A DNA stretch of 64,000 bases from Deltaproteobacteria bacterium. Its GTDB lineage: Bacteria; Desulfobacterota; Desulfarculia; JACQYL01. Below are positions 6,075-61,417 of the stretch, in pieces. The translations under genes and the position numbers were made by a program. The stretch is taken from NCBI GenBank assembly GCA_016208165.1, contig JACQYL010000024.1, forward strand, positions 3,234 through 67,233, written 5' to 3'. Below the pieces are notes generated by a model. The model was not told where the DNA came from, did no database searches, and saw only the letters and a list, made by a program, of their open reading frames with translations. The stretch's first letter is position 1. Each line of letters begins with the position of its first letter.

Positions 6075-6290
6075 TTATAGGTGACCAAATTCAGCTCGTA
6101 TCGAAATGCTGGTGGCTCCGGAACGGAGCCTGATAGGGAAGCCGGTGAAACACCGGCACGGACCCGCCGCTGTAACCGGGGACGAAACCCGCAACGGCCA
6201 CTGTGCGGCAAGTGTTTTTGGCGAAGCCGCATGGGAAGGCGCGGGAATTAGGATGATCCGGAAGTCAGAAGACCTGCCGGGCGATTTCGG
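6075..6290 (+). promoter_or_regulatory. Cobalamin (B12) riboswitch
   Basis: Conserved elements seen directly: AAGGGAAGCCGGTGAAA, GCTGTAACCGGGGACGAA, CCACTG, GGGAAGG and the B12 box AGTCAGAAGACCTGCC. Same strand as, and upstream of, the bzaF-like gene. Confidence 0.8.
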
Positions 6291-6329
6291 ACGACGCGAC
6301 TAAGAACCACAGTTGGTGGAGATGGCAAA

Positions 6330-6365
6330 TCCCCAAGCTGGTAATCCGGCTTGGGGATTTTTATT
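6330..6365 (+). terminator. Intrinsic terminator / riboswitch expression platform
   Basis: Stem CCCCAAGCTGG, loop TAAT, stem CCGGCTTGGGG (one mismatch), then ATTTTTATTT. Immediately 3' of the B12 aptamer. Confidence 0.65.
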
Positions 6366-6538
6366 TGAAGCGATTCACGGAGCACGTGTGGAAGCTCTCG
6401 GGGGAATCCGCCGGAGGCAGACCCGAACCCACCCCTGGATTTCATGAACTGAGCGCCTCCCAAGGGTTGGCGCCCTCAAGGCAATTGCCATGTCGGGGAG
6501 GTTCCTGAGTCACAGCGCGGAGCCCGCGGCTTGGTCCA

Positions 6539-6603
6539 GGGTCTCCCCGCGGGACGCGGGGTGACCCGTTTCTTGAAAGTTTTGGGAAGGGTTTGGGGCA
6601 CCC
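6539..6603 (+). repeat. Conserved leader element A: 29-nt palindrome GGTCTCCCCGCGGGACGCGGGGTGACC plus AAAGTTTTGGGAAGGGTTTGG motif
   Basis: Near-identical copy at 9161-9260 (element B). Lies between the riboswitch terminator and the bzaF start. Confidence 0.7.
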
Positions 6604-6645
6604 TGTTAACGAACTCTTTCTCTTTCCGTAACAAAGGAGGTTACC

Positions 6646-7959: not shown

Positions 7960-7973
7960 CCTGAGGATCAGAT

Positions 7974-9059: not shown

Positions 9060-9084
9060 GGGGAACTTTAGAAAGTTCCCCTCA
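9057..9084 (+). promoter_or_regulatory. Perfect 13-bp-arm palindrome overlapping the cobT stop (intra-operon hairpin, no U tract)
   Basis: TGAGGGGAACTTTAGAAAGTTCCCCTCA. Confidence 0.5.
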
Positions 9085-9160
9085 GACTCCCTTCAAATTC
9101 CTTAAGCGTGCCGCACCGCCTCCGGCTGAGCGGCTCAATCACTGAATGAATATCAGATGG

Positions 9161-9260
9161 GGTCCCGGGTCACCCCGCGGGACGCGGGGTGACCCCAATG
9201 AGAAAAGTCTTGGGAGGGGTTAGGTCCCGCCGCAGCGGGATTCTACAGAAGGGTTCCCCT
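9161..9260 (+). repeat. Conserved element B: palindrome GGGTCACCCCGCGGGACGCGGGGTGACCC plus AAAGTCTTGGGAGGGGTTAGG motif
   Basis: Paralogous to element A at 6539-6603. Lies in the cobT-bzaC spacer. Confidence 0.7.
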
Positions 9261-9270
9261 AACAACAGCT

Positions 9271-10842: not shown

Positions 10843-10907
10843 ATGGTATATGTGGCATCTGTTCGCAAGGTAGTTGGGGCCTTGCCCGTAGGTGGATTAT
10901 GGTGTGA

Positions 10908-10953
10908 GCGCCTCCCTCAGGAGCCTGCCCTGAGCTTGTCGAGGGGTGATGCC
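10908..10953 (+). repeat. Conserved 46-nt intergenic element (copy C)
   Basis: GCGCCTCCCTCAGGAGCCTGCCCTGAGCTTGTCGAGGGGTGATGCC; about 85% identical copy at 46756-46802. Confidence 0.65.
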
Positions 10954-11036
10954 AACCTCAAAAGTTTTGAAAAGGGGGTACGGGGGAGCCCCGCCACAGG
11001 CGGGGTTTCAAAAGTTTTCCCCCGTGGATCATTATC

Positions 11037-12416
11037 ATGCGGTTATTGCTGGTTCAGCTACCCACATCTCATCTGGGCGCAGGGGAACGCGTGTATCCCT
11101 TGGGCCTCTCGAGGCTTTCCGCGCTGGTCCCCCGGAACGCGGCCAAGGCCGCCCTGGATTTGAACCTGGCTGCGGATCCCTGGCCGGAACTCCGGAACGC
11201 TCTCCAATCGTTCCAGCCCGACGTGGTGGGATTGTCGTTTCGGAACCTGGATCCTCTGGCGGGTCACCAGGCTTCCTATCTTTCCGCTTTGAAAACGGCC
11301 GCCAAATTGGTTCGAGCGTCGATTCCCCATGCAAGGATTTGGGCGGGAGGTCCGGCCTTTTCCCTGTTCGCGGAGCGGATCATGATCGAGGCGCCCGAGG
11401 TGGACGCGGGGATCATCGGAGAGGGGGAAACCGCCCTGCCCCGCCTCTTGTCCCTCCATCGCACCCGCGATGCGATTCCCGGACTCGTTTACCGGACGAA
11501 GCGCGGAATCGTCAAACAGCCCGGGGCCTTTGTCTCGGATCTGGACACCCTCCCCGGCTTGGACGTGAAAAGCTTCCCCCCGGAGGCGTACTTAAGTGGG
11601 AACGCCTACGTAGCGTCCATGGGAATAGAAAGCAAACGGGGATGTGACCTGAGGTGCGGCTATTGCGTCTATCCTTGTCTCGGGGGAGGGAAACACCGGT
11701 TTCGAAGCCCCAAGAGCGTCGTGGACGAGATGGAACGGCTGCACACGGACCATGGCGTCGGTCTTTTTCATTTCACGGATCCGGTCCTGAATCGCCCGCC
11801 GGAACATCTCGAGGCGATCTGTCGCGAGCTTCTGAACCGAAAGTTGCGCGTGGAATGGACCGGTTTTTTCCGGGAAGACACGCTGTCGGAATCTTTGGCC
11901 CGGTTGGCGTCGGACGCAGGCCTGGCAGCCCTTTATTTCTCCGGCGACGCGCTTGCCGAACAGGGACTCCGGACATTGAACAAGCATATGACAACAGAGG
12001 ACCTTTTTGCCGCGGCCCGGATCGCCGCCCGAAGCGGCATTATCACGGTCTGCCATTTTCTGGTCAATTTGCCCGGAGACTCGAAGATACTGATCGAAGA
12101 GGCCTGGTCCACGTTGGACCGTATTTTGGACATCCATTCCAAGGCGGGAAATCTGGGCGCCGTGGTGTTCAATAACGTTCGACTGTATCCCGGGGCGCCG
12201 TTGACCGGAAAACTCGCGAATGACGGATTTCTGGACCCGGCCACGGATCTTTTGTATCCAACCTATTTCAATCCCCCAACATTCGCACATGTATTGCACG
12301 AAATGGAAGCCCACTGCCACCTGGCCGGCGTATTTTCGCGGTTGGGTCTGACCATGGAAACGAGGACGAACCCCCATGAACATCCGTATACTCGAGCATC
12401 CGCGGATTCCTTCTGA
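11037..12416 (+). CDS. bzaD: B12-binding radical SAM methyltransferase (BzaD-like)
   Basis: N-terminal B12-binding domain plus radical SAM CDLRCGYCVYP. Follows bzaC. Confidence 0.65.
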   Translation: MRLLLVQLPTSHLGAGERVYPLGLSRLSALVPRNAAKAALDLNLAADPWPELRNALQSFQPDVVGLSFRNLDPLAGHQASYLSALKTAAKLVRASIPHARIWAGGPAFSLFAERIMIEAPEVDAGIIGEGETALPRLLSLHRTRDAIPGLVYRTKRGIVKQPGAFVSDLDTLPGLDVKSFPPEAYLSGNAYVASMGIESKRGCDLRCGYCVYPCLGGGKHRFRSPKSVVDEMERLHTDHGVGLFHFTDPVLNRPPEHLEAICRELLNRKLRVEWTGFFREDTLSESLARLASDAGLAALYFSGDALAEQGLRTLNKHMTTEDLFAAARIAARSGIITVCHFLVNLPGDSKILIEEAWSTLDRILDIHSKAGNLGAVVFNNVRLYPGAPLTGKLANDGFLDPATDLLYPTYFNPPTFAHVLHEMEAHCHLAGVFSRLGLTMETRTNPHEHPYTRASADSF

Positions 12417-13893
12417 GAAACGCTTCAACGAGATCGCCAACACGCCGCTCTGGTCCTGTCTCATGGCCGGTTACGCGGCCGCCGCTTTGATGGAAGCCGG
12501 ACATGACGTCAGCCTATTGGACGCTCCGAGTCGCCACAACGAGTTCGGGGAAACCGTCTCGGACCTTTTGGCGCATCCGCCCGACGCGCTGTTCGTACAC
12601 GCCGTGTATTTCTGGGAACATACGGGTGCGCTGTTTCAATGCCTATCCCGTGTCAGAGACGAAGGATACGGCGGACATATCTGCCTGTTCGGCTTTTTCC
12701 CGACCCTGGCATATCCGGTCCTCCTCATGAATAACCGGGTTGTGGACAGTATTGCCGTGGGCGAGTTCGAGCACACTCTGGTGGATTTGGCCGAGAGACT
12801 GCGATCCGGCCGCCAGTGGCAGGATGTTCCGGGATTGGCGTTCCGGACGCCGGCAAGAATCGAGATGGCGGCAAGGCGCCCTCCGGCCCCGGACCCGGAC
12901 GCCTTTCCCTTTCCGATTCGATTCGAGCTTCCACCGTCAACGGCAAGCATACTGGCCGGCCGCGGGTGTTACAACCAGTGCAGTTTCTGTCCGGTGCCCT
13001 GTTTTTACAGCGAAGGTCCGCTCTGGCGTGGGAGATCGGTGAAGAACGTGATCCGGGAAGTCGAGGATTTGACGGATCGGGGATTCCGGGATTTCTATTT
13101 TGTGGACGCCAACTTCGTGGGACCGGGGACCGAGGGCAAAGAGCGGATCATCCGGTTGGCCCGGCGTCTCGAACCTCTCGGCGTTACATTCGGTATGGAA
13201 AGCAGGCCCAACGATTTGGATAGCAGGCTGCTCGAGACACTCCGGGCTGCGGGTCTCGAAAGCCTCCTCATGGGCATCGAAAGCGGCTCGACGGCGTCGT
13301 TGGGGCGGCTCCGCAAGGGCTGTTCGAGGGAAACCGCCGAAGAGGCCATCGCCCTGTGCCGGTCGTTCGGCATCGAGCCGGAGGTGGGTTTCATCATGTT
13401 CGAGCCGGACGGAACCATGGAAGACCTGCGAGCCAACCTGGATTTCCTGACAAAGAACCGGTTGCTGGATCGTTTGGGCCGGACGGCTAATGTGCTTTGC
13501 CACCGCCAGATCGTGCTCATGGGAACGCCCGGTTATCGCCAATACCAATTGTCGGGCAGGCTCGAGCCGCGAGGCTACCTCGGATTCGAAGGCGAAGTGA
13601 CGTTTCTGGACCCTCGGGTTTTGTGGATGTCCAAAGTGATGCGTTTTTGTTGCCTTTCGGTGCTCAAGGCCATGTCCGAGCCCATGTCGCCCATCTACTG
13701 GGAAAAAGAGGCTCCCTACAGTGAACCGTTTCAGCGTGTCAATGCATGGCTGGTGGAATTGTTCGAGCGGTTGCTCGAATCTGCGGAAAACACGACATCG
13801 CTTCCGAAGCTCGCAGATCTCGAGGGCGACATCGAGGGGGAACTTCAAGAGAAGATACGACAGGACAGATGCCCCCTTCGGCAGACCAGATGA
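12376..13893 (+). CDS. bzaE: B12-binding radical SAM enzyme (BzaE-like)
   Basis: B12-binding domain plus CYNQCSFCPVP radical SAM motif. Overlaps bzaD by 41 nt (translational coupling). Confidence 0.65.
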   Translation: MNIRILEHPRIPSEKRFNEIANTPLWSCLMAGYAAAALMEAGHDVSLLDAPSRHNEFGETVSDLLAHPPDALFVHAVYFWEHTGALFQCLSRVRDEGYGGHICLFGFFPTLAYPVLLMNNRVVDSIAVGEFEHTLVDLAERLRSGRQWQDVPGLAFRTPARIEMAARRPPAPDPDAFPFPIRFELPPSTASILAGRGCYNQCSFCPVPCFYSEGPLWRGRSVKNVIREVEDLTDRGFRDFYFVDANFVGPGTEGKERIIRLARRLEPLGVTFGMESRPNDLDSRLLETLRAAGLESLLMGIESGSTASLGRLRKGCSRETAEEAIALCRSFGIEPEVGFIMFEPDGTMEDLRANLDFLTKNRLLDRLGRTANVLCHRQIVLMGTPGYRQYQLSGRLEPRGYLGFEGEVTFLDPRVLWMSKVMRFCCLSVLKAMSEPMSPIYWEKEAPYSEPFQRVNAWLVELFERLLESAENTTSLPKLADLEGDIEGELQEKIRQDRCPLRQTR

Positions 13894-27203: not shown

Positions 27204-27487
27204 ATAGCCTAGTACAAATGGTACATTATAGACCATCCTGGTCAATATATCGTCTTGTACGCAATATTCAATGGTTTAGTAGAATGTGAAAAGAAACGTA
27301 ACCCTGGCGAAATCGGAGATGAGAAACCTATTAATGATACGTCATTCCGGCTTTCTACGGAATAACGTGGAATTAGCGCTCTTGGCTTCCTACGCGTTCA
27401 CGAACAGTTCGTGTCGTGAATTACCTAGTGTGCATACTGTTGTAAAAGTAGATGTTTTTTGACAGGCCGGTTCATAGGGAGCCAACT

Positions 27488-28726
27488 ATGAAGGATGAGC
27501 AAAAGACAAAAGCAGGTTTGATCTCGGAACTAAAATGGCTTCGCATCGAAAATAGTAAACTCGGGATGTCACTATCAGAATTAAGAAATACTGAAGAGGC
27601 TCTGAGGCGAAGCGAACAACAGTTGAGAATGGCTTTGGAAAGCGCCAATGAAGGTCTATGGGACTGGGACCTCGTTTCCGACGTGATGGAAGTCACTCCA
27701 CAGTGGGTTGAGAACCTCGGCTATACCCTTGAGGAAACCAGGCCTTACATGACCGGGGCTCGTTGGAAAAGCCTCACACACCCGGACGATCTCCCCAGAA
27801 TCAGGGAAGACCTGATCCAGCATTTCAAAGGCCAAACCGACCTGTACGAGAACGTCCACCGCATGCGCACAAAAAACGGCGAATGGAGGTGGTTGTTGGA
27901 TAGGGGAAGGGTCGTTCGATGGGGCGAGCACGGACGAGCGCTTCGCGCCATGGGAACATACCTGGATATCACGGAGCGCAAGCGCGCCGAAGAGGCCATG
28001 AAAGAAATCGAGTCCGAGGCGTTGAACGCGGGACAGATGGCGTCGCTGGGAGAACTTGCGGCAGGAGTTGCTCACGAAATCAACAACCCCATCAATTCCA
28101 TAATCAATCTTGCCCAGATACTCGTTAACGAGTATGACAAAGCAACAACCGAGTATGATTTGGGCCACAGAATCATGAAAGAAGGAGAGCGAATAGCGTC
28201 CATTGTGAGCGGCCTGTTGTCTTTCGCGAGTTCGCGAGACTTTACAAAAAAGCCGATCGACGTATCGGAAGTCTTATCGGCCACCTTGGGTCTGACTGAA
28301 GCTCAGCTCAACAAGAATGGAATTATTCTGAGACTTTCGATCCAAGACCCGATGCCAAAAGCCGTCGGTCATTTCCAGCAGCTACAGCAGGTATTTTTGA
28401 ATATAATCAACAACGCCAGGTATGCGCTGAACCAGCGATATCCCGGATTTCATCCCGACAAATTGTTAAAGATTGACGCCCGAGAGGCTCGCTTGAATGA
28501 TACACACTACGTAAAGGTGTCGCTGTTGGACAAAGGGACAGGCATTCCACAGTCGTATCTACATAGGGTCACCGAGCCCTTCTTTTCAACCAAACCCAGC
28601 GGGATGGGTACAGGCTTAGGGCTGAGTATCAGCCATGGCATAATAAAAGATCATGGAGGAAAGCTCGTGATTAAGAGCAGGGAGCTGGACTCCACTGAGG
28701 TCATCATTTATATTCCAGTCGGGTGA
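27488..28726 (+). CDS. PAS-domain sensor histidine kinase
   Basis: Coiled-coil plus PAS, H-box AHEINNP, and N/G1/G2 boxes (GTGLGLSI). AGGGAG RBS before ATG 27488. Confidence 0.8.
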   Translation: MKDEQKTKAGLISELKWLRIENSKLGMSLSELRNTEEALRRSEQQLRMALESANEGLWDWDLVSDVMEVTPQWVENLGYTLEETRPYMTGARWKSLTHPDDLPRIREDLIQHFKGQTDLYENVHRMRTKNGEWRWLLDRGRVVRWGEHGRALRAMGTYLDITERKRAEEAMKEIESEALNAGQMASLGELAAGVAHEINNPINSIINLAQILVNEYDKATTEYDLGHRIMKEGERIASIVSGLLSFASSRDFTKKPIDVSEVLSATLGLTEAQLNKNGIILRLSIQDPMPKAVGHFQQLQQVFLNIINNARYALNQRYPGFHPDKLLKIDAREARLNDTHYVKVSLLDKGTGIPQSYLHRVTEPFFSTKPSGMGTGLGLSISHGIIKDHGGKLVIKSRELDSTEVIIYIPVG

Positions 28727-28730
28727 GGCT

Positions 28731-30407
28731 ATGGCAGCTAACATATTATTAATAGACGACGAAGAGAACATACGATTCACTTTGAACCGATTTCTCCAGC
28801 AAGAGGGGTATAATGTATGGTGCGCATCCGACTGCGACCAGGCCCTAGAAATCATCGATAGCATCGAACTCGATGTCATTTTTGCTGACGTTATTTTGAA
28901 AGGAAGAACAGGTATTGAAATCCTGGATGAAGTCAAGAAAAGAAATATGTTATGCCCTGTTGTCATTTTTACCGGTGCGCCTAACATAGAAACGGCTTCG
29001 GATGCTGTTCGGCTAGGCGCATTTGATTATTTGCCCAAGCCTATACGCCAGGACACATTGCTTCACGTGGCAAGCAAGGCATTACGACATAAGAAACTTG
29101 CCGAAGAAAAGGAAAAATATCGTCTGAATCTCGAAGCTATTTTTAGGAGTGTCAAAGACGCTATTGTTACTGTTGATCAAAAGCTACTGATCCTCCAAGT
29201 CAATGGAAGAGCCGGAGAATTGTGTGGGATAACCCGGGAGTCGGCTGTCGGAAATGCTTTTGACTCTTTCTCAGGGGAATGCAGCATGAACTGCTTGGAG
29301 AGTCTGAAGACTACGATCCGTGAGCATCGTTCCCTTGAGGTTCGTTTCATTGAATGTGAAAGGAAAAGCCGTCCTCAACAAACCGTAAATATCAGGACTT
29401 ACCCATTGGTGGGGACCAGGAATAAAGTCCAGGGAGCTGTTCTCGTTATTAGAGATGAGACCCGACTCGTCCATCTGGAAAGGGAACTTGAAGGACGCAG
29501 TGAGCTTCATGGTATCATCGGCAAGAGTCCACAAATACAAGAGATTTATGACCTAATGGAGCGTTTGAAGGACGTCCGGAGCACCCTCTTGATAAGCGGA
29601 GAAAGCGGCACCGGGAAAGGTATGGTTGCCAGGACGATACACCGCATGGGAACTCTTCGTGGTAGGCCCTTTGTATCCGTAAACTGTTCCGCCTTGCCGG
29701 AGACCTTACTCGAAAGCGAGCTGTTCGGCCATGTCAGCGGAGCTTTCACCGGGGCCACCAAGAACCGCATGGGTCGATTCCAGAAAGCCGAGGGAGGTAC
29801 GATCTTCCTGGACGAAATTGGTGAGACCACGCCGCACATGCAGCTTCGCCTTCTCCACGTTCTGCAGGACGGGGAGTTTGAGCGTGTCGGCGATTCGACT
29901 CCGGTGAAGGTGAATGTCAGAGTAATTGCCGCCACGAACAAGGATTTAAATACTGAAATAGAAGGTGGGCGCTTCCGCGAAGACCTCTATTACCGTTTAC
30001 GGGTTGTGGAAATTGAACTGCCGCCGTTGAGAGAACGGAAGGAAGATATACCTCTCCTCGTCGATCATTTTTTGGAGAAACTGAGAATCAAACTCGATAA
30101 ACAGATCGCGTCGGTATCAGAGGATGTGCTCGAAACATTCATAGAATACCCTTGGCCGGGGAACGTCCGGGAGCTGGAGCATTCGCTGGAGCACGCATTC
30201 ATTCTTTGCAGGGAAGAAGTTATCGAGACCAGGCACCTGCCCGCTCATTTGAGAAAATTCGGTTTAACGTCCAAAGACCGGGAACACTATCACGATGTAG
30301 TCGCCGCCTTGGAGAAGGCTCGATGGAATAAAACGAAGGCGGCGGCGGTGCTGGGTATCAGCCGCCAGGAGCTCTATCGCAAGCTGAAGCGATATAAGAT
30401 CGTCTGA
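28731..30407 (+). CDS. Sigma-54-dependent response regulator (REC-PAS-AAA+-HTH)
   Basis: REC domain, PAS, GESGTGKG Walker A, GAFTGA sigma-54 contact motif, C-terminal Fis-type HTH. Confidence 0.85.
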   Translation: MAANILLIDDEENIRFTLNRFLQQEGYNVWCASDCDQALEIIDSIELDVIFADVILKGRTGIEILDEVKKRNMLCPVVIFTGAPNIETASDAVRLGAFDYLPKPIRQDTLLHVASKALRHKKLAEEKEKYRLNLEAIFRSVKDAIVTVDQKLLILQVNGRAGELCGITRESAVGNAFDSFSGECSMNCLESLKTTIREHRSLEVRFIECERKSRPQQTVNIRTYPLVGTRNKVQGAVLVIRDETRLVHLERELEGRSELHGIIGKSPQIQEIYDLMERLKDVRSTLLISGESGTGKGMVARTIHRMGTLRGRPFVSVNCSALPETLLESELFGHVSGAFTGATKNRMGRFQKAEGGTIFLDEIGETTPHMQLRLLHVLQDGEFERVGDSTPVKVNVRVIAATNKDLNTEIEGGRFREDLYYRLRVVEIELPPLRERKEDIPLLVDHFLEKLRIKLDKQIASVSEDVLETFIEYPWPGNVRELEHSLEHAFILCREEVIETRHLPAHLRKFGLTSKDREHYHDVVAALEKARWNKTKAAAVLGISRQELYRKLKRYKIV

Positions 30408-33657: not shown

Positions 33658-34154
33658 AATCAGATGAACCGGTCTTTTGCGAGCAACCATTTTTCTCCAC
33701 CCATTCCACCCTCCACGGCCTGTCGAGATGGGCGGACGAGTCCATAGCGCAGGATGTTCCCGGCGGCCTGAAGCAACTCTTTTCGAAATTCCGCGTGTAT
33801 GGACTTCCCGAGTCGCATTCACCTTGTTGACGCCCATCGGACTCGTGTCATGGTATCCTGCCGTTGAAAAAGGGGATGGAAAAGTGTACTCACACAGAGA
33901 GTGTCTAAACGATGTTGCGACCGGAAAGAACCCGGCGCAGGCGGCGTGCTTCCGGCCCTTCCCTACAATAAGCATGAAAATCCCGGATCGGCCGGCGGTT
34001 AAGGCTTCCAATCGATCGCAAAGCGCGGAAGAACGTTGCGCGTCGGGTTGACAGGAACCAAGCGACCTCCCTCGAGGTTCTCGGAATTCCATTGGGACCA
34101 CGATGTGGTCCCGCAGCCGTGGAGATCCAAAGGATCTCCCAGGACATCCTGAGC

Positions 34155-35710
34155 ATGGATACTAAAAGTTACGGTAAGGCTCCCCAGAACCTGGCCATTG
34201 TAGGCGGAGGCCGGACATGCAAATTTTTCCTGAAGTTGTTCTCTTTGAATGCTTTTACCAGATTCAAAATCAAGGTTGTGGGTGTCTGCGACACCAACCC
34301 GGAGGCGGAAGGCTACCGCATGGCCCGGGACATGGGTATTTACACTACCACCGATTTGCGGGAGCTGCTGCAAATCGAAGATTTGAACGCTGTCATTGAA
34401 TCAACCAACAGCCGCGAGGTGCTGTACGATCTGATCAAGTTGAGACCCGAGCGCGTGGGAATCCTTGAACTCAACATCGCCCGATGGTTGCTTCAGTTCG
34501 TTGCGGTGGATCAGAAGCGCAGGCCATTGGAACAGCAAGTCCTTTTCGAGAAGATGATCTCCGAGTTTCTCATCCAACAGGTGACCCAGCGAATCCTGGT
34601 GTTGAATACCGATTTCACCATAGCCGAGGCCAATGCCGCGTGTCTGGAATCCATTCAAAAGACCCGAAAAGATGTGATCGGCGCACCCTGTTACAGCGTC
34701 ATCCGTGGATTCAACGCACCCTGCGCCAGTACGGATTTCGGCCTGACCTGTCCCATGTTGGAAACGATCCGGACCGGCAGATCCTCACGCGTCATTGAGC
34801 CGGACCTGAAGGCGGATGATCCGCTGTCATACAGCGAGATCGTGACGTATCCGATCAAGGATCCAAATGGCGACATTGTGCGTATCATCGAGATTTGGCG
34901 TGATATTTCTCGGGATATCTCGTCTCAATGGATTCAGCGACAAAAGGAATCCAAGGCGGATCTGGATAAACTGATCCAGGAGGATCGACTTATTTCACTG
35001 GGCAAGCTGGTTGCGAGCTGCGTTCATGAAATCAACAACCCGATCCAGGGGCTCATAACGTTTAGCCACATCATACTCGACATCCTGAAAGAAGGGAAGA
35101 TTGGTCCTGAGGACGCCGAGCAATTGCGCAAGTTTGCGGAGCTCATGTCCACCGAACTCGAACGTTGCGGCGCCATCGTTTCCGGCCTGCTGTCCTTTTC
35201 CAGGGAATCATCCATGGAGTACCGGGACACCAATCTCAACGACGTACTCACGGCGGTGCTCAACTTGACCCGCCATCGAATCAAACTGCAGGACATCGAA
35301 TTGAAGGTCGAACTGGCTCCGGACATGTTGAGCATTCACGGTGACGCCAACAAGTTGCAGCAGTGTTTTCTCAATTTGATCTTCAACTCCATCGAGGCGA
35401 TGCCGTCCGGCGGGCGTCTGGAAATCATCTCGCGGCTGGATCCGAAACTGGAATCGGTCTCTGTCGAAATCCACGACACCGGCGTCGGCATTTCGCCTGA
35501 AAATTTGGATCATATCTTCGATCCTTTCTTCACGACAAAACCCATGGGCGAAGGCACCGGTCTGGGTCTATCCATCGTCTACGGAGTGGTCAAAAGCCAT
35601 GGCGGAAAAGTCGCGGTGAACAGCCGGGTCAATGAGGGGACCAATTTTATTCTCCAGTTTCCGATTCCTACCGGGGATTGGATTACGCTTCCCCACCAGG
35701 AGGATGCTCC

Positions 35711-35714
<4 letters not shown>
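34155..35714 (+). CDS. PAS-domain sensor histidine kinase
   Basis: H-box CVHEINNP and ATPase G-boxes (GTGLGLSIV). Start at MDTKSYGK. Confidence 0.8.
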
Positions 35715-37057
<1,343 letters not shown>

Positions 37058-37121: not shown

Positions 37122-37682
37122 ATGAAAGCTGATACGAAGCGGATTGGTGTAGTGGCTGTAGGAAAGGCGCCCCCTCTATCAGTCAAGGTGATAGCGGCCC
37201 ATGTCTCCGGCTATCTTCATCTAACCACGGACACCCTCGCCCCCTGGGATCTCCCCCGAGAGGCCTACGATTCGAAAAGGCATCAATATAACGCGGCCCA
37301 TCTATTGAAGGCGTTCGAGTCCAAACCGCTCGACACATGCGGCAAGGTCATCGCCGTGTTCGACGTGGACATCTTTGTCCCCATATTCACCCATGTGTTC
37401 GGTGAGGCCATGCTGGGAGGAAAAGTGGCTCTCGTGTCTCTCTATCGGCTGGGGAAAGCCGAAGGTTCGAACACTCCCGAGTTTTCGACCGTTTTGGAGC
37501 GGGCCGCCAAGATCGCCTTGCACGAGTTGGGACACCTGTTCAATGTCATGCATTGCACGGACGAAAGGTGCCTTATGCGTTTTGCCGGAAACCTGGACGA
37601 TCTGGATCGCATACCCTTCCAGTTTTGCCGCTACTGCACCACTTTCCTGGAGGACGCCACGCACGCTCCCGCATTTCCGTAA
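37122..37682 (+). CDS. Archaemetzincin-like zinc peptidase (M54 family)
   Basis: HELGHLFNVMHC...C zinc motif plus C-terminal CRYC. Confidence 0.65.
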   Translation: MKADTKRIGVVAVGKAPPLSVKVIAAHVSGYLHLTTDTLAPWDLPREAYDSKRHQYNAAHLLKAFESKPLDTCGKVIAVFDVDIFVPIFTHVFGEAMLGGKVALVSLYRLGKAEGSNTPEFSTVLERAAKIALHELGHLFNVMHCTDERCLMRFAGNLDDLDRIPFQFCRYCTTFLEDATHAPAFP

Positions 37683-38038: not shown

Positions 38039-38974
38039 CTATTTGCTCGTATGCAGAAACCGGTCGACCAAGCCGTTCCATTCGATACCTTCGCAGTTGC
38101 CGAAGACATCGTCCACCACCTCGGCGCCGGTGGCCGCCAGCGCGGCGTATTCAGGACCCAAAATCCCCATCAGCTTCTGTTGCTCCTGTTCCATCCAATG
38201 GACGCTTTCATCACCGTAATAGAGGCCTTTCAAATTCCGCTTGGGCATGTTCGGCTCGATAATCATCAGCCATCCGTGTTGATAGGGATCTTTGTGGGCG
38301 ATTTCCGGATGGTCCATGACTGCATGGTTCACCGCCAGGACCTTCCCCGTCACGGGACACAGCACGGACGCCTCATGTTGTTCGCGCGCAAAGCTCCACC
38401 CCACCTTGTCTTGGGACACGCTTCTTCCCAAAGACGGAAGCGCCACCGAACTCATCGTGCCGAACACGCGGGAGAGGAAGTCATCGAATCCCACTCGTAC
38501 GACGCCGCCATGTTCGAACCGCACCCAGGTATGCCCCATATGGTAGTAGTAGCCTTCCGCGATTTTGAATCCGGACGCCAGCCGGTACTTGGGGGCATCC
38601 AGTTCCTGGCTCAAATCCACTTCATCCAGCCACTGGTCGAAGGCGCAATGGTAGCACTCGTTGTTCAAAGGGCATATCTTCGGTGCATTGATGCGGCCGG
38701 TGAGCGCATGACGGCACGGCCGGTTGGCGCCGATATAGCGGCTCCTCAACTCCTCGCTCCAACCGGGTGCAAACAGCTGAGAAACATCCTCCGGCTTCTT
38801 CTGCCCGGCCCGGCTCATCGCCTTGTCAAAGCCGCAGGTGTTGCAGTCATAGGCATTGTCACAGACCCGGTAATTGATGACCCCGGCTTTCGCCCAGATG
38901 CACTGGTTTTCCACCACCTGGAAGCTGACCACCCGTTTCTTACCATCACTCGGCTTATTTCCCTTTGCTTTCAT
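38039..38974 (-). CDS. Fusion of two Cys/His-rich modules with a glycine-cleavage-H-like (lipoyl-domain fold) domain lacking the lipoyl-lysine
   Basis: Module A NQCIWAKAGVINYRVCDNAYDCNTCGFD; module B RPCRHALTGRINAPKICPLNNECYHCAFDQWLD. C-terminal GcvH-like HTWV...GFDDF...PVTGKVLAVN...DPYQHGWL, with AREQHEA where GcvH has ESVKAAS. Confidence 0.6.
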   Translation of the reverse strand: MKAKGNKPSDGKKRVVSFQVVENQCIWAKAGVINYRVCDNAYDCNTCGFDKAMSRAGQKKPEDVSQLFAPGWSEELRSRYIGANRPCRHALTGRINAPKICPLNNECYHCAFDQWLDEVDLSQELDAPKYRLASGFKIAEGYYYHMGHTWVRFEHGGVVRVGFDDFLSRVFGTMSSVALPSLGRSVSQDKVGWSFAREQHEASVLCPVTGKVLAVNHAVMDHPEIAHKDPYQHGWLMIIEPNMPKRNLKGLYYGDESVHWMEQEQQKLMGILGPEYAALAATGAEVVDDVFGNCEGIEWNGLVDRFLHTSK

Positions 38975-39004
38975 TTTAATATCTCCCTGTCATAAATAAT
39001 ATTT

Positions 39005-39223
39005 TCAATGCATCTGCCTGGCATCAATAGTGGAATCCATCGGTTCCCCGCTCCGCATGAGGTTCGCACCGTCAGCCTCATCCATGTAATCGAGCCACTG
39101 GTCGAAAGCGCAATGAAAGCATTCGTAGTTGAATATGCAGGTTTTGGGTTCATCCACCCGCCCACTCAGGACATGGACGCAAGGCCCACGTCGGCCGTTG
39201 TTCGAATGCGTATTCTTTTGCAT
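39005..39223 (-). CDS. 72-aa Cys/His-rich small protein, paralog 1
   Basis: RRGPCVHVLSGRVDEPKTCIFNYECFHCAFDQWLDYMDE (C-x13-C-x5-C-x2-C). Paralogous to 39314-39532 and to module B of 38039-38974. Confidence 0.55.
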   Translation of the reverse strand: MQKNTHSNNGRRGPCVHVLSGRVDEPKTCIFNYECFHCAFDQWLDYMDEADGANLMRSGEPMDSTIDARQMH

Positions 39224-39313
39224 GTTGGAGCCCCCTCTCAGCAGAACGCCTTGCGTTCCTTCCTATTACTTTGGTCCGAATTCTCTTTCTTTCATGCGGA
39301 CAAATCCGGCGCT

Positions 39314-39532
39314 TCACGCCGCCTGTAATTCCAGGCTCGGCGCCCTCGTCGATTCTCCCGTCTTCAGGTCGCTTTGGTCGATGAACTCATCCATGTAATC
39401 GAGCCACTGATCGAAAGCGCAATGAGAGCATTCGTGGTTGAATATGCAGGTTTTGGGTCCATCCACCCGCCCGCTCCGGACGTGGACACATGGTCCGCGT
39501 CGGCCGTTGTCGGAGTGTGTATTTTTTCGCAT
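39314..39532 (-). CDS. 72-aa Cys/His-rich small protein, paralog 2
   Basis: RRGPCVHVRSGRVDGPKTCIFNHECSHCAFDQWLDYMDE. Tandem duplicate with 309-bp period. Confidence 0.55.
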   Translation of the reverse strand: MRKNTHSDNGRRGPCVHVRSGRVDGPKTCIFNHECSHCAFDQWLDYMDEFIDQSDLKTGESTRAPSLELQAA

Positions 39533-39924
39533 CTTGGAACCCTCCTTTCAGTGAGACATTGCCCGTCTCTTGACCTCCATATAGAGCAAGGACGATGCCA
39601 CCGCGCGCCCGAAGCGGTTTTATTTAAGTAACCCGTTTATTTTACTTTGTTTTTTCGGATGAACGTGGCGGGTCAGTCGGGAATCGGTCACCAAGCGGAC
39701 CGAAGAGGAAATGATGAAAACCGCTACACCTACCCGCGGCGGGAAAGCCCATGGTCAAAATATATGTAGTTATTACAATTGGTTCTATCTGTGTCGCAAT
39801 TTTCGACACACCGTATTGATATTGTCTATCATCGTTACACGCTTGGGAGGAGAAAAGGATTGGTTCAGGGGATCGCGGCTGGAAGGGTTTCTTATTTTTC
39901 GTCATTCGGGACTTAGCGGTTTCT

Positions 39925-39975
39925 AAAACCTGAAAGAAGCCCGAGGGAAACCATTCAGGGTTTCCCCCCGGGCCA
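39925..39975 (-). terminator. Probable intrinsic terminator for the SBP gene
   Basis: Inverted repeat CCCGAGGGAAACC / GGTTTCCCCCCGGG. On the minus-strand RNA it is followed by a U-rich run. Confidence 0.4.
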
Positions 39976-59486: not shown

Positions 59487-61417
59487 GCCGGGGTTCGTTC
59501 ATAAATCGAGTAGGGGGGTTCCTTGCGGTTCCCCCCTCTCACACCACCGGGCATACCTGCTCGGTACCACGGCGGTTTCCGTTAGATGTAAGCTTCAGAT
59601 ACCTTGTGTTCAGGTTGACGAGCCCCTGCTTGTCGAACCAGTCGTTGGTCATGGCGTGGCACGCCTGTGGCGTCAGAGACTTGCGCCACCAACCTTTGCC
59701 GGACAGCGCCATTATCCAGGAGCTCCACTCCGGCACTCCGCGCTCCATCAGGAATTTTGCAATGGCGAAGGCTCGTTTGCATTGTTTCAATCTGAAGCAA
59801 CGCAGTTTGCGCCTTATCCACGCATCCAGGTTCCTAAACTGCTTCCGGTGGATTGCCAGTTGGAAGTAGGTCACCCAGCCGGTCAGGAACTCGTTAAGCT
59901 TCCTGATGCACTCATCAAACGGCATGGACCGGTTTCTCCGCGTCAGTTCGCGTATCCGTGCCTTGGCCCGCTTCATGCTTTGGGGGGCAATCACAAGCCG
60001 CCCTTCTGCATGGAGTCGGTAGCCGAGAAACTTGCGTTCCGACACGTGGGCCACCGCACTTTTTATCCGGTTCACCCGCAGCTTAAGTCGCGTCTCCAAG
60101 AACCGTGTGATGGATTCCATAACCCGCTCTCCCGCCGCCGGGCTTTGGACGTAGATGTTGCAGTCGTCAGCATAGCGGCAGAAGCAGTGTCCCCTCCTCT
60201 CAAGTTCCTTGTCCAGGTCATCGAGCAGGAGATTCGCCAATATCGGCGATAATGGCCCCCCCTGCGGCGTCCCTTCGTACCGGGTCACACATACCCCATT
60301 TGTCATTATTCCCGCAGTCAAAAACCGCCGGATAATCCTTAGCAGACGTTTGTCGCCGATGCGGCGGGCGAGCCTCGACATCAGGATGTCGTGGTTGACA
60401 CGGTCGAAGAACTTCTCCAGATCGCAATCCACGACTATGGTGCGGCCCTGTTCCACATACCGGCTTGCCTGCGTCAGGGCGTCATGTGCTCCCCTTCCAG
60501 GACGGAATCCGTAACTGGATTCGGAAAAGGTGGGATCAAGGATTGGTGTCAACACTTGCAGGATCGCCTGCTGGATCACCCGGTCCACCGTAGTCGGAAT
60601 GCCCAATTGCCGCATTCCCCCGCCAGGTTTGGGGATGTCAACCCGCTTTATGGGTTGCGGCTTGTAACTGCCGTCCATGAGCGAGGCGATCAGCTCGTCC
60701 TTGTTCGTCCTTAGCCAGTCCCCCAGCTCATGGACGCACAACCCGTCCACGCCCGGCGACCCTTTGTTGGCTTTGACGCGCTGGTAGGCCTTGTTGAGGT
60801 TTGCCGGGCGGCAAATCCTCTCCATAAGGTTCTGCGCCAAGGCTCGTCCTTCGCTCAATGCCGTGGGAACTCGCTGCTCCCCGTGCGCGCCAGGTCCGGT
60901 TCCGCCTTCGCCGGTTGCGCCGGGGCCTCGGGACAGCGGCTCTGCAAAAAGTTCGAGCTGCCGCTGCGGCCCTGTTTGCTGCCTCCTCGCTCCCATCGAA
61001 ACTCGCGTGACTGCTCCTTGCTATAACGGATTCGGCCCTTCAGCCGCCAAAGGCGCGGCCTACTATGGCCTCTGCTGACTTCTCCGCGCCCGTCCCGGCA
61101 CATCGCTGTACCGGTAGCCGGGAATCGACCCGGCAGATGCGGAGACCTCCCAGGGTAAGGCGTGACTCTTTCCTCCGGCCCTCGCCGGATTTACCTGCGC
61201 ACGCGTCCGGGTGATTATCGGGCCTCCCCGTCCAATGCCGGGTTACCCCGCTGCGCCGGCCTTACTATCCGGTTTCTGTTCGTCGAGTCCGGGCTTTGCC
61301 TCCGGCTTCCTTCAGACCCCGCCTCGCGACGACGCCCTTGCCATTGGCTAACGCTTCCGATCACCACGGCCCGTAGAGGACTTGCACCTCATAAGATTCA
61401 CGCCATGCCTGGCACAC
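59487..61417 (-). mobile_element. Bacterial group II intron (antisense to the flanking operon); boundaries approximate (+/-30 nt)
   Basis: Encodes a reverse transcriptase/maturase. Candidate 5' GUGUG at 61417-61413. Candidate domain V hairpin (GGGGGGAACC-GCAA-GGAACCCCCC with 2x2 internal loop and GNRA loop) near 59500-59535. Confidence 0.65.
59539..60825 (-). CDS. Group II intron-encoded reverse transcriptase/maturase (no obvious HNH endonuclease domain)
   Basis: RT motifs incl. YADD and domain X. Start set at MERICRPANLNKAYQRVKANKGSPGVDG. Confidence 0.85.
   Translation of the reverse strand: MERICRPANLNKAYQRVKANKGSPGVDGLCVHELGDWLRTNKDELIASLMDGSYKPQPIKRVDIPKPGGGMRQLGIPTTVDRVIQQAILQVLTPILDPTFSESSYGFRPGRGAHDALTQASRYVEQGRTIVVDCDLEKFFDRVNHDILMSRLARRIGDKRLLRIIRRFLTAGIMTNGVCVTRYEGTPQGGPLSPILANLLLDDLDKELERRGHCFCRYADDCNIYVQSPAAGERVMESITRFLETRLKLRVNRIKSAVAHVSERKFLGYRLHAEGRLVIAPQSMKRAKARIRELTRRNRSMPFDECIRKLNEFLTGWVTYFQLAIHRKQFRNLDAWIRRKLRCFRLKQCKRAFAIAKFLMERGVPEWSSWIMALSGKGWWRKSLTPQACHAMTNDWFDKQGLVNLNTRYLKLTSNGNRRGTEQVCPVV

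What the first reader, a model, noticed from the sequence alone, without database searches (positions are those of the whole stretch)
38039..39532. Three paralogous Cys/His-rich modules: two tandem 72-aa genes plus a double-module fusion to a lipoyl-less GcvH-like domain
The motif C-x13-C-x5-C-x2-C-AFDQWLD is present four times: in two tandemly duplicated small ORFs (309-bp period) and twice at the N-terminus of a 311-aa protein. The C-terminal half of that protein has the glycine-cleavage H-protein fold signature but lacks the lipoylated lysine. I cannot place it in a described system. GcvH-like carriers without lipoate are known as HdrB/DsrE-type partners or sulfur carriers. Tandem stand-alone copies of the metal-binding module suggest a modular carrier/adaptor set.
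Basis: seen in the sequence. Interest (0 to 1): 0.7.

Follow-up and report, generated by a model that had tools for sequence, protein, structure and literature searches.

The report
Sigma-54 operon: lipoate-free H-protein with Cys4 modules
Three co-transcribed genes in a sulfate-reducer-type bacterium encode a glycine-cleavage-H-like protein that cannot carry lipoate but has two copies of an undescribed four-cysteine module, plus two free copies of that module; it is a conserved, uncharacterised cassette that gene neighbourhoods tie to redox enzymes.

Summary
The exact motif C-x13-C-x5-C-x2-C-AFDQWLD occurs three times, not four. The fourth copy (residues 25-53) is a divergent paralogue, C-x12-C-x5-C-x2-C-GFDKAM.

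The 311-aa protein has a true GCV_H fold but glutamine at the lipoyl-lysine position. That column is variable across 120 relatives.

The Cys4 module matches no Pfam or NCBIfam family, no PDB sequence and no solved fold. It occurs only directly before a GcvH-like domain, or as a small gene next to one.

The three genes form one sigma-54 operon. Their conserved neighbours in about 80 Desulfobacterales species are a PAS histidine kinase, an NtrC-type activator and an archaemetzincin, not Hdr or DsrE.

About 30% of loci carry one free module gene. This lineage has two, both under purifying selection. Free modules have a disordered tail, and about half end in Ala-Ala, like an ssrA degradation tag.

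A sister family fuses "module + GcvH-like" to a HoxU/NuoG-type Fe-S domain inside NuoE/NuoF operons, often beside Hdr genes.

Best reading, inferred: an inducible, lipoate-free redox carrier or adaptor with metal-binding modules. Function remains untested. I class it as a new variant of a known kind.

The parts
39586..39600 (-). Sigma-54 (-24/-12) promoter TGGCATCGTCCTTGC, 53 nt upstream of the small1 ATG
   Evidence: Pattern match with 1 mismatch to TGGCAC-N5-TTGC. On its own this is no rarer than chance in the window. However, a single TGGCA[CT]-N5-TTGC element sits at the equivalent place in 46 of the 81 unique loci examined (80 genome loci plus the window), and in most of the rest a looser -24/-12 match was found but not inspected. 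It lies upstream of the free module gene where one exists (340-514 nt from module 1) and otherwise 130-170 nt from it. The close relative L087 conserves it almost base for base.
39723..39729 (-). Candidate activator-binding half-site GTGTAGC, about 128 nt upstream of the promoter
   Evidence: TGTAGCC occurs at about -125 and GCTACA at about -193 and -215 relative to the -24 element across loci. GGCTACA is found in 43 of 61 upstream regions. The site is conserved between the window and L087.
39790..39810 (-). Perfect inverted repeat TGTGTCG-N7-CGACACA, about 210 nt upstream of the promoter; candidate second activator site
   Evidence: Read from the sequence. It aligns with TGTGGCG-N6-GCTACAC in L087 and lies where other loci have GCTACA-N5-TGTAGC.
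39943..39968 (-). Terminator-like hairpin ending the upstream SBP_bac_3 gene; marks the start of a separate transcription unit
39314..39532 (-). small1: 72-aa free-standing Cys4 module (core C15-x13-C29-x5-C35-x2-C38-AFDQWLD at 39398-39490) with a disordered tail ending LQAA. GGAGG lies 8 nt before the ATG.
   Evidence: The AF2 core has pLDDT about 80 and the tail below 55. dN/dS against small2 is about 0.1 over codons 1-49. The public record starts this gene 22 codons too late, giving 50 aa.
39005..39223 (-). small2: 72-aa free-standing Cys4 module (core 39089-39181). The tail is unrelated to that of small1 and ends RQMH.
   Evidence: The orthologous second copy in the relative L087 ends MQAA.
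38816..38902 (-). Module 1 of the 311-aa protein (residues 25-53): C25-x12-C38-x5-C44-x2-C47-GFDKAM
   Evidence: The cysteines are invariant or at least 90% conserved in 120 relatives. hhalign against module 2 gives probability 91%.
38624..38716 (-). Module 2 of the 311-aa protein (residues 87-117): C87-x13-C101-x5-C107-x2-C110-AFDQWLD
38192..38548 (-). GcvH-like domain (residues 143-261). The lipoyl-lysine position is Q199 (codon 38378-38380).
   Evidence: Pfam GCV_H 68.9 bits. AF2 pLDDT is about 90. Foldseek TM 0.9 to 1onl, 3ab9 and 9c19. Alignment to 1onl. Column statistics.
38039..38191 (-). Conserved helical C-terminal extension (residues 262-311) plus the stop codon; absent from canonical H-proteins
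   Evidence: Helices 255-307 in the AF2 model. Invariant W260, E264, L268, G283, D289, W299 and L307. The extension is also present in the HoxU-fused sister family.
37122..37682 (+). Archaemetzincin (Peptidase_M54), convergent with the operon; a constant companion of the cassette
   Evidence: Pfam 59.2 bits; NCBIfam archmetzin 139 bits, just under its cut-off of 145. Present next to the GcvH-like gene in nearly all loci. The motif HExxHxx[N/D]xxHC-x4-CxM...CxxC is found in 70 of 80 loci.
35678..37057 (+). NtrC-type sigma-54 activator (receiver + AAA+ + HTH_8); the presumed regulator of the operon
   Evidence: Pfam. About 70% identical across 80 loci and always adjacent.
34092..35714 (+). Soluble histidine kinase: N-terminal Rossmann-like region, a PAS domain with a three-cysteine motif, HisKA and HATPase_c
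   Evidence: Pfam. Weak GFO_IDH_MocA hit, E = 0.003, below the cut-off. The PAS Cys motif is conserved in 55 loci.

Best explanation
The region is one sigma-54-dependent operon, small1-small2-gcvH-like. It is the conserved output of the adjacent two-component system (a soluble PAS histidine kinase and an NtrC-type activator), which always travels with an archaemetzincin gene.

The 311-aa product keeps the H-protein fold but cannot be lipoylated. In place of lipoate it carries two copies of a previously undescribed four-cysteine module. The two 72-aa genes encode free copies of the second module.

Proposed mechanism (inferred):
- Each module binds a redox-active metal centre, most likely an iron-sulfur cluster.
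- "Module + H-like domain + C-terminal helices" is an electron-transfer and docking unit for NAD(P)H-linked NuoEF/HoxU-type and Hdr-type flavo-iron-sulfur enzymes.
- In this lineage the unit is made on demand as a soluble carrier or adaptor when the cytoplasmic kinase senses a redox signal.
- The free modules are short-lived partners or competitors of the fused modules. A disordered tail ending in Ala-Ala, resembling an ssrA tag, would send them to ClpXP-type proteolysis and so tune or time the response.

Shown: operon structure, promoter, synteny, loss of the lysine, module conservation, selection on the small genes, and the fusion and neighbourhood links. Inferred: metal identity, electron transfer, partner enzymes, degradation, and the role of the archaemetzincin.
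For: **Regulation**
- The -24/-12 element lies 53 nt upstream of small1.
- A strict TGGCA[CT]-N5-TTGC element occurs exactly once, at the matching place, in 46 of the 81 unique loci. It always lies upstream of the free module gene when one is present.
- GCTACA/TGTAGCC half-sites are conserved in position.
- Kinase, activator and M54 genes flank the gene in nearly all 80 species loci, and the activator is about 70% identical across them.

**Not a working H-protein**
- Q199 sits at the lysine position, and the column holds K in 12 of 120 relatives.
- All NCBIfam GcvH models score far below their cut-offs.

**The module**
- Seven of the eight module cysteines are invariant in 120 relatives and the eighth (C47) is at least 90% conserved.
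- In 1.84 billion representative proteins the module is found only as small free proteins or directly before a GcvH-like domain. There are 151 hits, of which about 115 are free proteins.
- Free genes sit immediately upstream of a GcvH-like gene in every context examined.

**Redox link**
- A sister family of at least 58 clusters carries Fer2_4 + 2x[4Fe-4S] + one module + GCV_H.
- All 10 of its loci examined have a NuoE-like and/or NuoF-like gene next door (both in 8).
- In L094 and L099 it follows HdrB, and in L094 the operon begins with DsrE, TusA, MvhD and HdrA.
- In L092 and L096 a two-module GcvH-like protein lies in the same sigma-54 operon as the fusion and NuoE/F. L092 also holds a kinase, an activator and M54.
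- Hdr/Mvh-like genes lie within about 6 kb in 22 of 55 main-family loci that have enough flank.
- The kinase has a weak NAD-type Rossmann match and a conserved three-cysteine PAS motif.

**Free modules**
- dN/dS is about 0.1 over the core, while the tails are unrelated.
- 60 of 115 free proteins end in -AA (binomial p about 6e-93), as do 18 of 26 ORFs read independently from genomes.
- The tail has low pLDDT.
Against: - No experiment exists for any member.
- The window itself has no NuoEF or Hdr genes near the operon.
- The redox link rests on a paralogous family only 25-31% identical, and on neighbourhoods that are partly phylogenetically non-independent.
- Iron-sulfur cannot be told from zinc by sequence. 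AlphaFold gave pLDDT below 50 for residues 1-125 of the fusion, and the small-protein model found no structural neighbour.
- The GcvH-like domain has no conserved cysteine or other obvious redox group of its own, so what it would carry or dock to is unknown.
- small2 of the window lacks the Ala-Ala end.
- The role of the archaemetzincin is unexplained.
Confidence: 0.45

Rival explanations
1. Thiol/disulfide or persulfide carrier. The cysteine pairs of the modules replace the dithiol of lipoamide. The H-like domain then presents a protein-borne disulfide or sulfane sulfur to Hdr-type (CCG-domain) enzymes, as lipoylated LbpA or DsrC do.
For: - GcvH-like LbpA proteins are essential partners of Hdr-like complexes (PMC6067878).
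- Hdr/Mvh-like genes lie near 22 of 55 loci.
- In L094 the fused paralogue follows DsrE-TusA-MvhD-HdrA-HdrC-HdrB. In L099 it follows HdrB.
- Each module ends in CxxC.
Against: - Four invariant cysteines in a C-x12/13-C-x5-C-x2-C pattern, repeated twice, look more like metal ligands than like one redox pair.
- In the fused family the module sits in line after [2Fe-2S] and [4Fe-4S] domains.
- No DsrE, TusA, rhodanese or Hdr gene lies near the operon in the window.
- No sulfur-transferase is conserved in the main family.
Confidence: 0.2
2. Non-redox regulatory adaptor. The modules are structural zinc-binding units, and the H-like domain is a protein-interaction surface. The protein and its free modules feed back on the activator, the kinase or the archaemetzincin, in the way that PspA controls PspF. 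The free modules would act as unstable microprotein-type competitors.
For: - The only universally conserved neighbours are regulators and a protease.
- Free copies of a single domain with a degradation-tag-like end are typical of competitive regulators.
- No catalytic or cofactor site is evident on the H-like domain.
Against: - This does not explain why the same unit is fused to a HoxU-type Fe-S domain inside NuoEF operons in all 10 loci examined.
- It does not explain the recurrent Hdr neighbourhood.
- About 60% identity over the full length across roughly 200 species is high for a mere feedback regulator.
Confidence: 0.2
3. The small genes are precursors of modified or processed peptides. 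Their N-terminal 49 residues would be a conserved leader and the tail a hypervariable core, with the archaemetzincin as the processing protease.
For: The core is conserved and the tail hypervariable. A metalloprotease gene is always nearby.
Against: - No modifying enzyme or exporter is conserved nearby.
- The protease is present in the roughly 70% of loci that have no small gene.
- The "leader" is a folded four-cysteine domain homologous to part of the neighbouring protein.
- The only conserved tail feature is the terminal Ala-Ala.
Confidence: 0.04
4. An ordinary glycine-cleavage or lipoyl-relay H-protein, as the public annotation says.
For: Pfam GCV_H is above its threshold. Source records name it "glycine cleavage system protein H".
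Against: - The lipoyl lysine is absent and its column is not conserved.
- It scores 60.7 bits against the 115.85-bit cut-off of TIGR00527.
- No gcvP, gcvT, lpd or lipoate-ligase neighbours were seen.
- It has 140 extra N-terminal and 50 extra C-terminal residues.
Confidence: 0.02

Closest known systems
Glycine cleavage system H protein (GcvH, Pfam PF01597; e.g. PDB 1onl, 3ab9)
   Same: Same fold and recognisable sequence over residues 143-261: Pfam 68.9 bits, Foldseek TM 0.9, 27% identity.
   Different: It has no lipoyl lysine: Q199 takes that position and the column is variable. It scores below all NCBIfam GcvH cut-offs. It adds two Cys4 modules at the N-terminus and about 50 helical residues at the C-terminus. 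It has no gcvPT or lpd neighbours, and it is sigma-54 controlled.
LbpA, the lipoate-binding proteins of the sulfur-oxidising Hdr-like (sHdr) system (PMC6067878; PMC11094781)
   Same: A single GcvH-like domain used outside glycine cleavage and genetically tied to Hdr-type complexes and to DsrE/TusA. Hdr-like genes lie near 22 of 55 related loci, and DsrE-TusA-Hdr lies next to a fused paralogue.
   Different: LbpA is lipoylated by a dedicated LplA-type ligase encoded nearby. Here there is no lysine, no ligase gene was seen, and cysteine modules are present instead. The host lineage is sulfate-reducer-type, not sulfur-oxidising.
HoxU / NuoG-N-terminal / HydA-N-terminal Fe-S subunits of NuoEF-type (HydABC/Bfu-like) NAD(P)H flavoprotein complexes
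   Same: A sister family joins exactly this kind of Fe-S domain (Fer2_4 + two [4Fe-4S]) to one Cys4 module and a GcvH-like domain. It is encoded with NuoE and NuoF homologues.
   Different: The window protein has a second Cys4 module where the HoxU-like part would be, and it has no NuoEF neighbours. It would be a free-standing counterpart, not a subunit encoded in such an operon.
GcvH-L of Streptococcus/Staphylococcus (PDB 5a35) and the chlamydial "not_gcvH" family (TIGR03077)
   Same: Divergent GcvH paralogues used outside glycine cleavage. Foldseek matches 5a35 at E = 5e-6.
   Different: It scores 45 bits against the 144-bit cut-off of TIGR03077. From my own knowledge, GcvH-L keeps its lysine and works with a macrodomain/sirtuin pair; no such genes were seen here.
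ssrA-type C-terminal degradation tags (...LAA-COOH) recognised by ClpXP (established knowledge, not tested here)
   Same: The free modules have a disordered tail, and 60 of 115 end in Ala-Ala, often LAA, VAA or KAA.
   Different: The tail is genetically encoded, not added by tmRNA. The residue before the Ala-Ala is often charged. small2 of the window lacks the motif.
Vertebrate-type [2Fe-2S] ferredoxin ligand spacing C-x5-C-x2-C (recalled from memory; a lead, not a test)
   Same: The second to fourth cysteines of each module have the same spacing.
   Different: The remaining ligand lies 12-13 residues upstream rather than about 36 downstream. There is no sequence or fold similarity.

Membership tests
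Functional GcvH (glycine cleavage / lipoyl relay) | GCV_H fold and sequence signature | tested here: met
   Pfam 68.9 bits against a cut-off of 22.2. Foldseek TM 0.9 to solved H-proteins.
Functional GcvH (glycine cleavage / lipoyl relay) | Lipoyl-lysine in the hairpin (E-S-V-K-A/T) | tested here: not met
   Q199 aligns with the lysine of 1onl. The column holds K in 12 of 120 relatives; G and D are the commonest residues.
Functional GcvH (glycine cleavage / lipoyl relay) | Score above the curated equivalog cut-off | tested here: not met
   TIGR00527 60.7 bits against 115.85. PRK01202 69.4 bits against 117.
Functional GcvH (glycine cleavage / lipoyl relay) | Genomic association with gcvP, gcvT, lpd or lipoate ligase/synthase | tested here: not met
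   None appears among the called neighbours in L001-L006 or L087 or in the window.
LbpA / sHdr system | Lipoylated lysine and a dedicated LplA-like ligase nearby | tested here: not met
   No lysine. No ligase among the neighbours.
LbpA / sHdr system | Adjacent hdr-like genes with DsrE/TusA sulfur transferases | tested here: inconclusive
   Absent from the window. Hdr/Mvh-like genes occur in 22 of 55 related loci. DsrE-TusA-Hdr was seen only beside a fused paralogue, in L094.
Described zinc-finger or Fe-S domain families | Match to a curated family, a solved sequence or a solved fold | tested here: not met
Sigma-54-dependent operon with a dedicated enhancer-binding protein | -24 GG / -12 GC promoter at the right distance | tested here: met
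   TGGCAT-N5-TTGC at 39586-39600. The position is conserved in 46 of the 81 unique loci and it moves with the free module gene.
Sigma-54-dependent operon with a dedicated enhancer-binding protein | Adjacent activator with an AAA+ sigma-54 interaction domain, plus upstream binding sites | tested here: met
   Sigma54_activat 236.7 bits. Synteny. Half-sites at about -125, -193 and -215. Actual binding and RpoN dependence cannot be tested here.
ssrA-like ClpXP degron on the free modules | Unstructured C-terminal tail ending in Ala-Ala-COOH | tested here: met
   small1 ends LQAA. 60 of 115 homologues and 18 of 26 genome ORFs end in AA. The tail has pLDDT below 55. small2 of the window ends QMH.
ssrA-like ClpXP degron on the free modules | Protease-dependent instability | not testable with these tools
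   This needs half-life measurements.
NuoEF/HoxU-type (HydABC/Bfu-like) complex subunit | Encoded with NuoE and NuoF homologues, and carrying the HoxU-type Fe-S domain | tested here: not met
   The window protein has no Fer2_4 or Fer4 domain and no NuoEF neighbours. Only the sister family meets this test.
Archaemetzincin (Peptidase_M54) for the neighbouring gene | HExxHxxGxxHC-x4-CxM-x17-CxxC | tested here: inconclusive
   The motif is present, but Gly is replaced by Asn in the window (HELGHLFNVMHC). The replacement is N in 49, D in 14 and G in 4 of the 80 loci. NCBIfam scores 139 bits against a cut-off of 145.

The most novel reading that the evidence does not exclude
"Cys4 module + lipoate-free H-protein domain" is a previously unrecognised protein-based redox carrier. 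It would be the physiological electron acceptor or donor (or the swinging docking arm) for NuoEF/HoxU-type and Hdr-type flavin-based bifurcating enzymes in sulfate-reducer-type bacteria. Cells would deploy it under a dedicated sigma-54 redox-sensing circuit. The free modules would be degradable mini-ferredoxin-like shuttles or decoys, and the archaemetzincin their processing or clearing protease.
Probability: 0.22. Interest if true: 0.85.

Novelty: new variant of a known kind. Interest (0 to 1): 0.62.

Why it matters
- **Annotation.** The cassette is present in at least 207 species-level genomes, mostly Desulfobacterales. It is uniformly mis-annotated as "glycine cleavage system protein H", while its small genes are truncated or missed altogether.
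- **Open question on Hdr partners.** The physiological partners of many Hdr-like and NuoEF-like complexes of sulfate reducers and syntrophs are still unknown. If the unit is a lipoate-free redox carrier, it offers a concrete, testable candidate.
- **How a fold is reused.** It would show how an H-protein scaffold can be re-purposed by swapping a lipoyl arm for metal-binding modules.
- **Other concrete leads.** It defines a new four-cysteine domain family. It gives archaemetzincins, whose bacterial role is unknown, a defined genetic context. It adds a natural example of free single-domain paralogues that carry a built-in degradation-tag-like end.

Tried and rejected
**Searches that found nothing**
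- Pfam and NCBIfam scans of the small proteins and of the N-terminal 135 residues, at E up to 10: only noise.
- A PDB sequence-profile search with 89 free modules.
- PADLOC defence models.
- Rfam on the operon region.
- Literature searches on GcvH + sulfate-reducing + cysteine-rich, archaemetzincin + sigma-54, GcvH + Desulfosarcina, Bfu + glycine cleavage, and GcvH/HdrA/NuoF: no description of this protein. The Desulfovibrio vulgaris sigma-54 regulome paper does not mention it.

**Analyses with limited yield**
- AlphaFold of the full protein gave no usable model for residues 1-125.
- A search for further copies of the activator palindrome in the window gave no more than chance.
- The metagenome scan for the HoxU fusion mostly returned plain HoxU-like genes and added only four fused loci.

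**Ideas rejected**
- The small ORFs as decaying duplication remnants: rejected because dN/dS is about 0.1, they have ribosome-binding sites, and more than 100 clusters conserve them.
- The 314-aa plus-strand ORF at 38051-38995 as a gene: rejected because it is the antisense shadow of a well-supported gene.
- A recent lineage-specific origin of the free modules: rejected because they are no closer to their own locus's module 2 (59%) than to those of other loci (57%). They also share their own signature, FDQW rather than FDQM plus the terminal AA.
Full report
**1. What is there**

Each has a purine-rich ribosome-binding site.

At the DNA level, a 157-nt stretch is repeated at a spacing of 309 bp with 88% identity. 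A third copy, 66-70% identical, lies inside the large gene.

The motif C-x13-C-x5-C-x2-C-AFDQWLD occurs three times: in small1, in small2 and at residues 87-117 of the large protein. A profile-profile comparison still supports distant homology between module 1 and module 2 (probability 91%, P = 1e-6). The free genes are clearly of module-2 type (probability 99.9%).

The window comes from a MAG labelled "Deltaproteobacteria bacterium". The large protein is in the public record as "glycine cleavage system protein H". small1 is called there as a 50-aa product from an internal GTG, which cuts off the first cysteine. No exact match to small2 was returned.

**2. The GcvH-like half**

Residues 143-261 match Pfam GCV_H at 68.9 bits. 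AlphaFold models residues 130-311 with pLDDT of about 90, and that model superposes on solved H-proteins with TM 0.9.

All curated NCBIfam GcvH-type models fall far below their cut-offs. The HMMER alignment to Thermus thermophilus GcvH puts Q199 at the lipoyl-lysine position. In 120 relatives that column is G (40), D (23), K (12) and E (10), with smaller counts for other residues. The family therefore cannot depend on lipoylation.

The domain has no conserved cysteine. It does have a conserved helical C-terminal extension of about 50 residues that canonical H-proteins lack.

**3. The module**

All eight module cysteines are invariant in the 28-sequence alignment; across 120 relatives seven are invariant and C47 is at least 90% conserved.

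A profile of the 72-aa proteins was searched against 1.84 billion representative proteins. It found 151 hits. About 115 are free proteins of 57-113 aa. Most of the others are GcvH-like fusions or fragments of them, and one of these has four modules. A few are eukaryotic repeat artefacts.

Every free gene whose context could be read lies immediately upstream of a GcvH-like gene. The module is thus an undescribed domain whose evolution is bound to the GcvH-like domain.

**4. Regulation and synteny**

The 311-aa family (about 313 aa, about 60% identical over the full length) was found in 207 species-representative genomes, mostly Desulfobacterales and including three Desulfosarcina isolates.

In nearly all 80 loci fetched, the gene is convergent with an operon encoding a PAS histidine kinase, an NtrC-type sigma-54 activator (about 70% identical across loci) and an archaemetzincin.

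A TGGCAT-N5-TTGC element lies 53 nt upstream of small1. Within the window alone it would not be significant. Across loci, however, a single such element sits at the equivalent place. It is 130-170 nt from module 1 when there is no free gene, 340-514 nt when there is one, and 697 nt here with two. The free genes are therefore co-transcribed with the large one.

Half-sites GCTACA and TGTAGCC recur at fixed distances of about -215, -193 and -125. The window keeps GTGTAGC at -128 and has a perfect inverted repeat at -210, which aligns with a GCTACAC-containing site in a close relative.

A terminator-like hairpin separates the operon from the upstream solute-binding-protein gene.

The kinase has no evident membrane segment. 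It has a weak, sub-threshold match to an NAD-binding Rossmann fold at its N-terminus and a three-cysteine PAS motif conserved in 55 loci. This hints at a cytoplasmic redox signal, no more.

**5. The free modules**

About 25 of the 80 loci have one free module gene. The window and its near relatives have two in tandem.

Between small1 and small2, codons 1-49 give dN = 0.053 and dS = 0.52. Codons 50-72 are only 38% identical at the nucleotide level. Both copies are therefore maintained by selection on the core.

Free modules are an old lineage, not recent local copies. They are no closer to module 2 of their own locus (59%) than to those of other loci (57%). They evolve faster than fused modules (55% against 80%). 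They also carry their own signature, FDQW where the fused modules have FDQM.

Unexpectedly, 60 of 115 free proteins end in Ala-Ala (p about 6e-93 for 9% alanine), as do 18 of 26 ORFs read directly from genomes. The tail before it is hypervariable and is predicted to be disordered.

A disordered tail ending in -AA-COOH is the hallmark of ssrA-type tags read by ClpXP (established knowledge). I infer that the free modules are built to be short-lived. small1 ends LQAA. small2 ends RQMH, although its orthologue in a relative ends MQAA.

**6. Clues to function**

The window itself has no redox-enzyme genes near the operon. Related sequences give three independent leads.

(a) In locus L082 the gene is preceded by NuoE-like and NuoF-like genes and by a 441-aa protein. 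That protein consists of a HoxU/NuoG-type [2Fe-2S] domain, two [4Fe-4S] domains, one Cys4 module (CRYMRMGFISHKMCPNNYQCWNCELDQ) and a GcvH-like domain without the lysine. This fusion is a family of at least 58 clusters with a strictly conserved module. All 10 loci examined have a NuoE-like and/or NuoF-like gene adjacent (both in 8 of them), and most also have an HdrA/GltD-type flavoprotein.

(b) In L092 and L096 a two-module GcvH-like protein, which ends in -KAA, lies in the same sigma-54 operon as the fusion and NuoE/F. L092 also carries a kinase, a sigma-54 activator and an archaemetzincin. This ties all the components together in a distant lineage.

(c) Hdr/Mvh-like genes lie within about 6 kb in 22 of 55 main-family loci that have enough flank, in several different arrangements. 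In L094 the fusion directly follows DsrE-TusA-MvhD-HdrA-HdrC-HdrB.

**7. Most likely mechanism**

Putting this together, "module + H-like domain" behaves as a unit that plugs into NAD(P)H-linked Fe-S flavoproteins. The module's position in line after Fe-S domains, and its four invariant cysteines, favour a metal (probably Fe-S) redox centre.

I therefore propose that the window protein is an inducible, lipoate-free redox carrier or adaptor, and that the free modules are unstable partners or competitors. I put confidence in the redox role at about 0.45. Operon structure, regulation and loss of lipoylation are well supported. Metal identity, partners, proteolysis and the role of the archaemetzincin are inferences.

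The rivals are:
- a zinc-based regulatory adaptor (0.2);
- peptide precursors (0.04);
- a real H-protein (0.02).

**8. Comparison with known systems**

The closest known relatives are GcvH (same fold, but fails the lysine, cut-off and context tests) and LbpA of sHdr systems (same idea of an H-like protein serving Hdr, but lipoylated; PMC6067878).

A redox-carrier role for GcvH next to bifurcating enzymes has been discussed for acetogens, and the authors themselves judged it unlikely (PMC8760232).

I found no paper describing the module, the fusion to HoxU-like domains or the sigma-54/archaemetzincin cassette. That library is incomplete, so absence is not proof of novelty.

**9. Verdict**

The finding is real and coherent, and it is mis-annotated in public records. 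It is a new variant of a known fold family carrying a new domain, set in a conserved regulatory cassette, with a plausible but untested link to anaerobic redox metabolism. Interest 0.62.

Noticed in passing
window 39314-39532 and 39005-39223: The public record of this MAG calls small1 as a 50-aa protein from an internal GTG (HY788_04350), which loses the first conserved cysteine. No exact match to small2 was returned by the protein search. Small genes of this family appear to be under-called in general: only 8 hits came from the word-indexed search, against about 115 clusters in the exhaustive one.
   Followed up: partly
free module proteins (P0121-P0277; loci L014-L088); window small1 C-terminus at 39314-39322: About half of all free module proteins end in Ala-Ala after a hypervariable disordered tail, and the two-module GcvH-like proteins of L092 and L096 end in -KAA. 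This may be an ssrA-like degradation signal. It may instead be a recognition motif for the neighbouring archaemetzincin.
   Followed up: partly
window 37122-37682, and the M54 genes of L007-L086: The cassette's archaemetzincins keep HExxH...H, the Met-turn Met and the four-cysteine zinc site. However, the metzincin glycine is replaced by Asn (49 loci) or Asp (14 loci). This may be a distinct subfamily. Its substrate is unknown.
   Followed up: partly
window 34092-35714: The histidine kinase appears soluble. It has an N-terminal region with a weak NAD-binding Rossmann match (GFO_IDH_MocA, E = 0.003; PDB 3hnp, E = 0.8) and a PAS domain with the conserved motif GxxC-x11-C-x8-CP. It may be a cytoplasmic redox or cofactor sensor.
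   Followed up: partly
L082 2925-4250; L089, L091, L092, L094, L096-L100: A family of 411-533-aa proteins fuses a HoxU/NuoG-type Fe-S domain to one Cys4 module and a lysine-less GcvH-like domain. It takes the place of the third subunit in NuoE/NuoF (HydBC-like) operons, some of which lie beside dsrAB-dsrD, HdrABC-MvhD or sensory [FeFe]-hydrogenase-like genes. I found no description of it.
   Followed up: partly
L001 1-6762; L009, L024, L051, L058, L081 and others: A receiver-only response regulator followed by HdrA-like, MvhD (FlpD) and HdrC/B-like genes recurs on either side of the cassette. One HdrA-like protein carries a fused receiver domain, which suggests phosphorylation control of an Hdr-type enzyme.
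   Followed up: partly
window 39244-39258: A GC-rich hairpin (GAACGCCTTGCGTTC) lies in the 90-nt spacer between small1 and small2, just before the small2 ribosome-binding site. No T-run follows it on the coding strand. It may be an mRNA processing or stability element.
   Followed up: no
window 6095-13893: A cobalamin riboswitch (6095-6295, 110.7 bits) precedes five genes: a ThiC-like radical SAM, CobT (DBI_PRT), an O-methyltransferase with DUF2284, and two radical SAM genes, the first of which has a B12-binding domain. From memory, this resembles the anaerobic benzimidazole (bza) lower-ligand operon.
   Followed up: no
window 59539-61333 (minus strand): Group II intron RNA domains (RF02001 at 61160-61333; RF01998 at 61035-61117) lie upstream of a 485-aa ORF (59539-60996), presumably the intron-encoded protein.
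   Followed up: no
window 27452-30407: A second two-component pair sits 4 kb from the cassette's kinase: a PAS histidine kinase and a sigma-54 activator with an extra PAS domain. Its target is unknown.
   Followed up: no
window 38051-38995 (plus strand): A 314-aa open frame runs antisense to the GcvH-like gene. It is almost certainly a shadow ORF of a GC-rich gene and not a gene.
   Followed up: yes
window 1953-5422 (minus strand): A protein with thrombospondin type-3 repeats lies next to a 732-aa thermolysin-like (M4) peptidase. This may be a secreted pair, unrelated to the finding.
   Followed up: no
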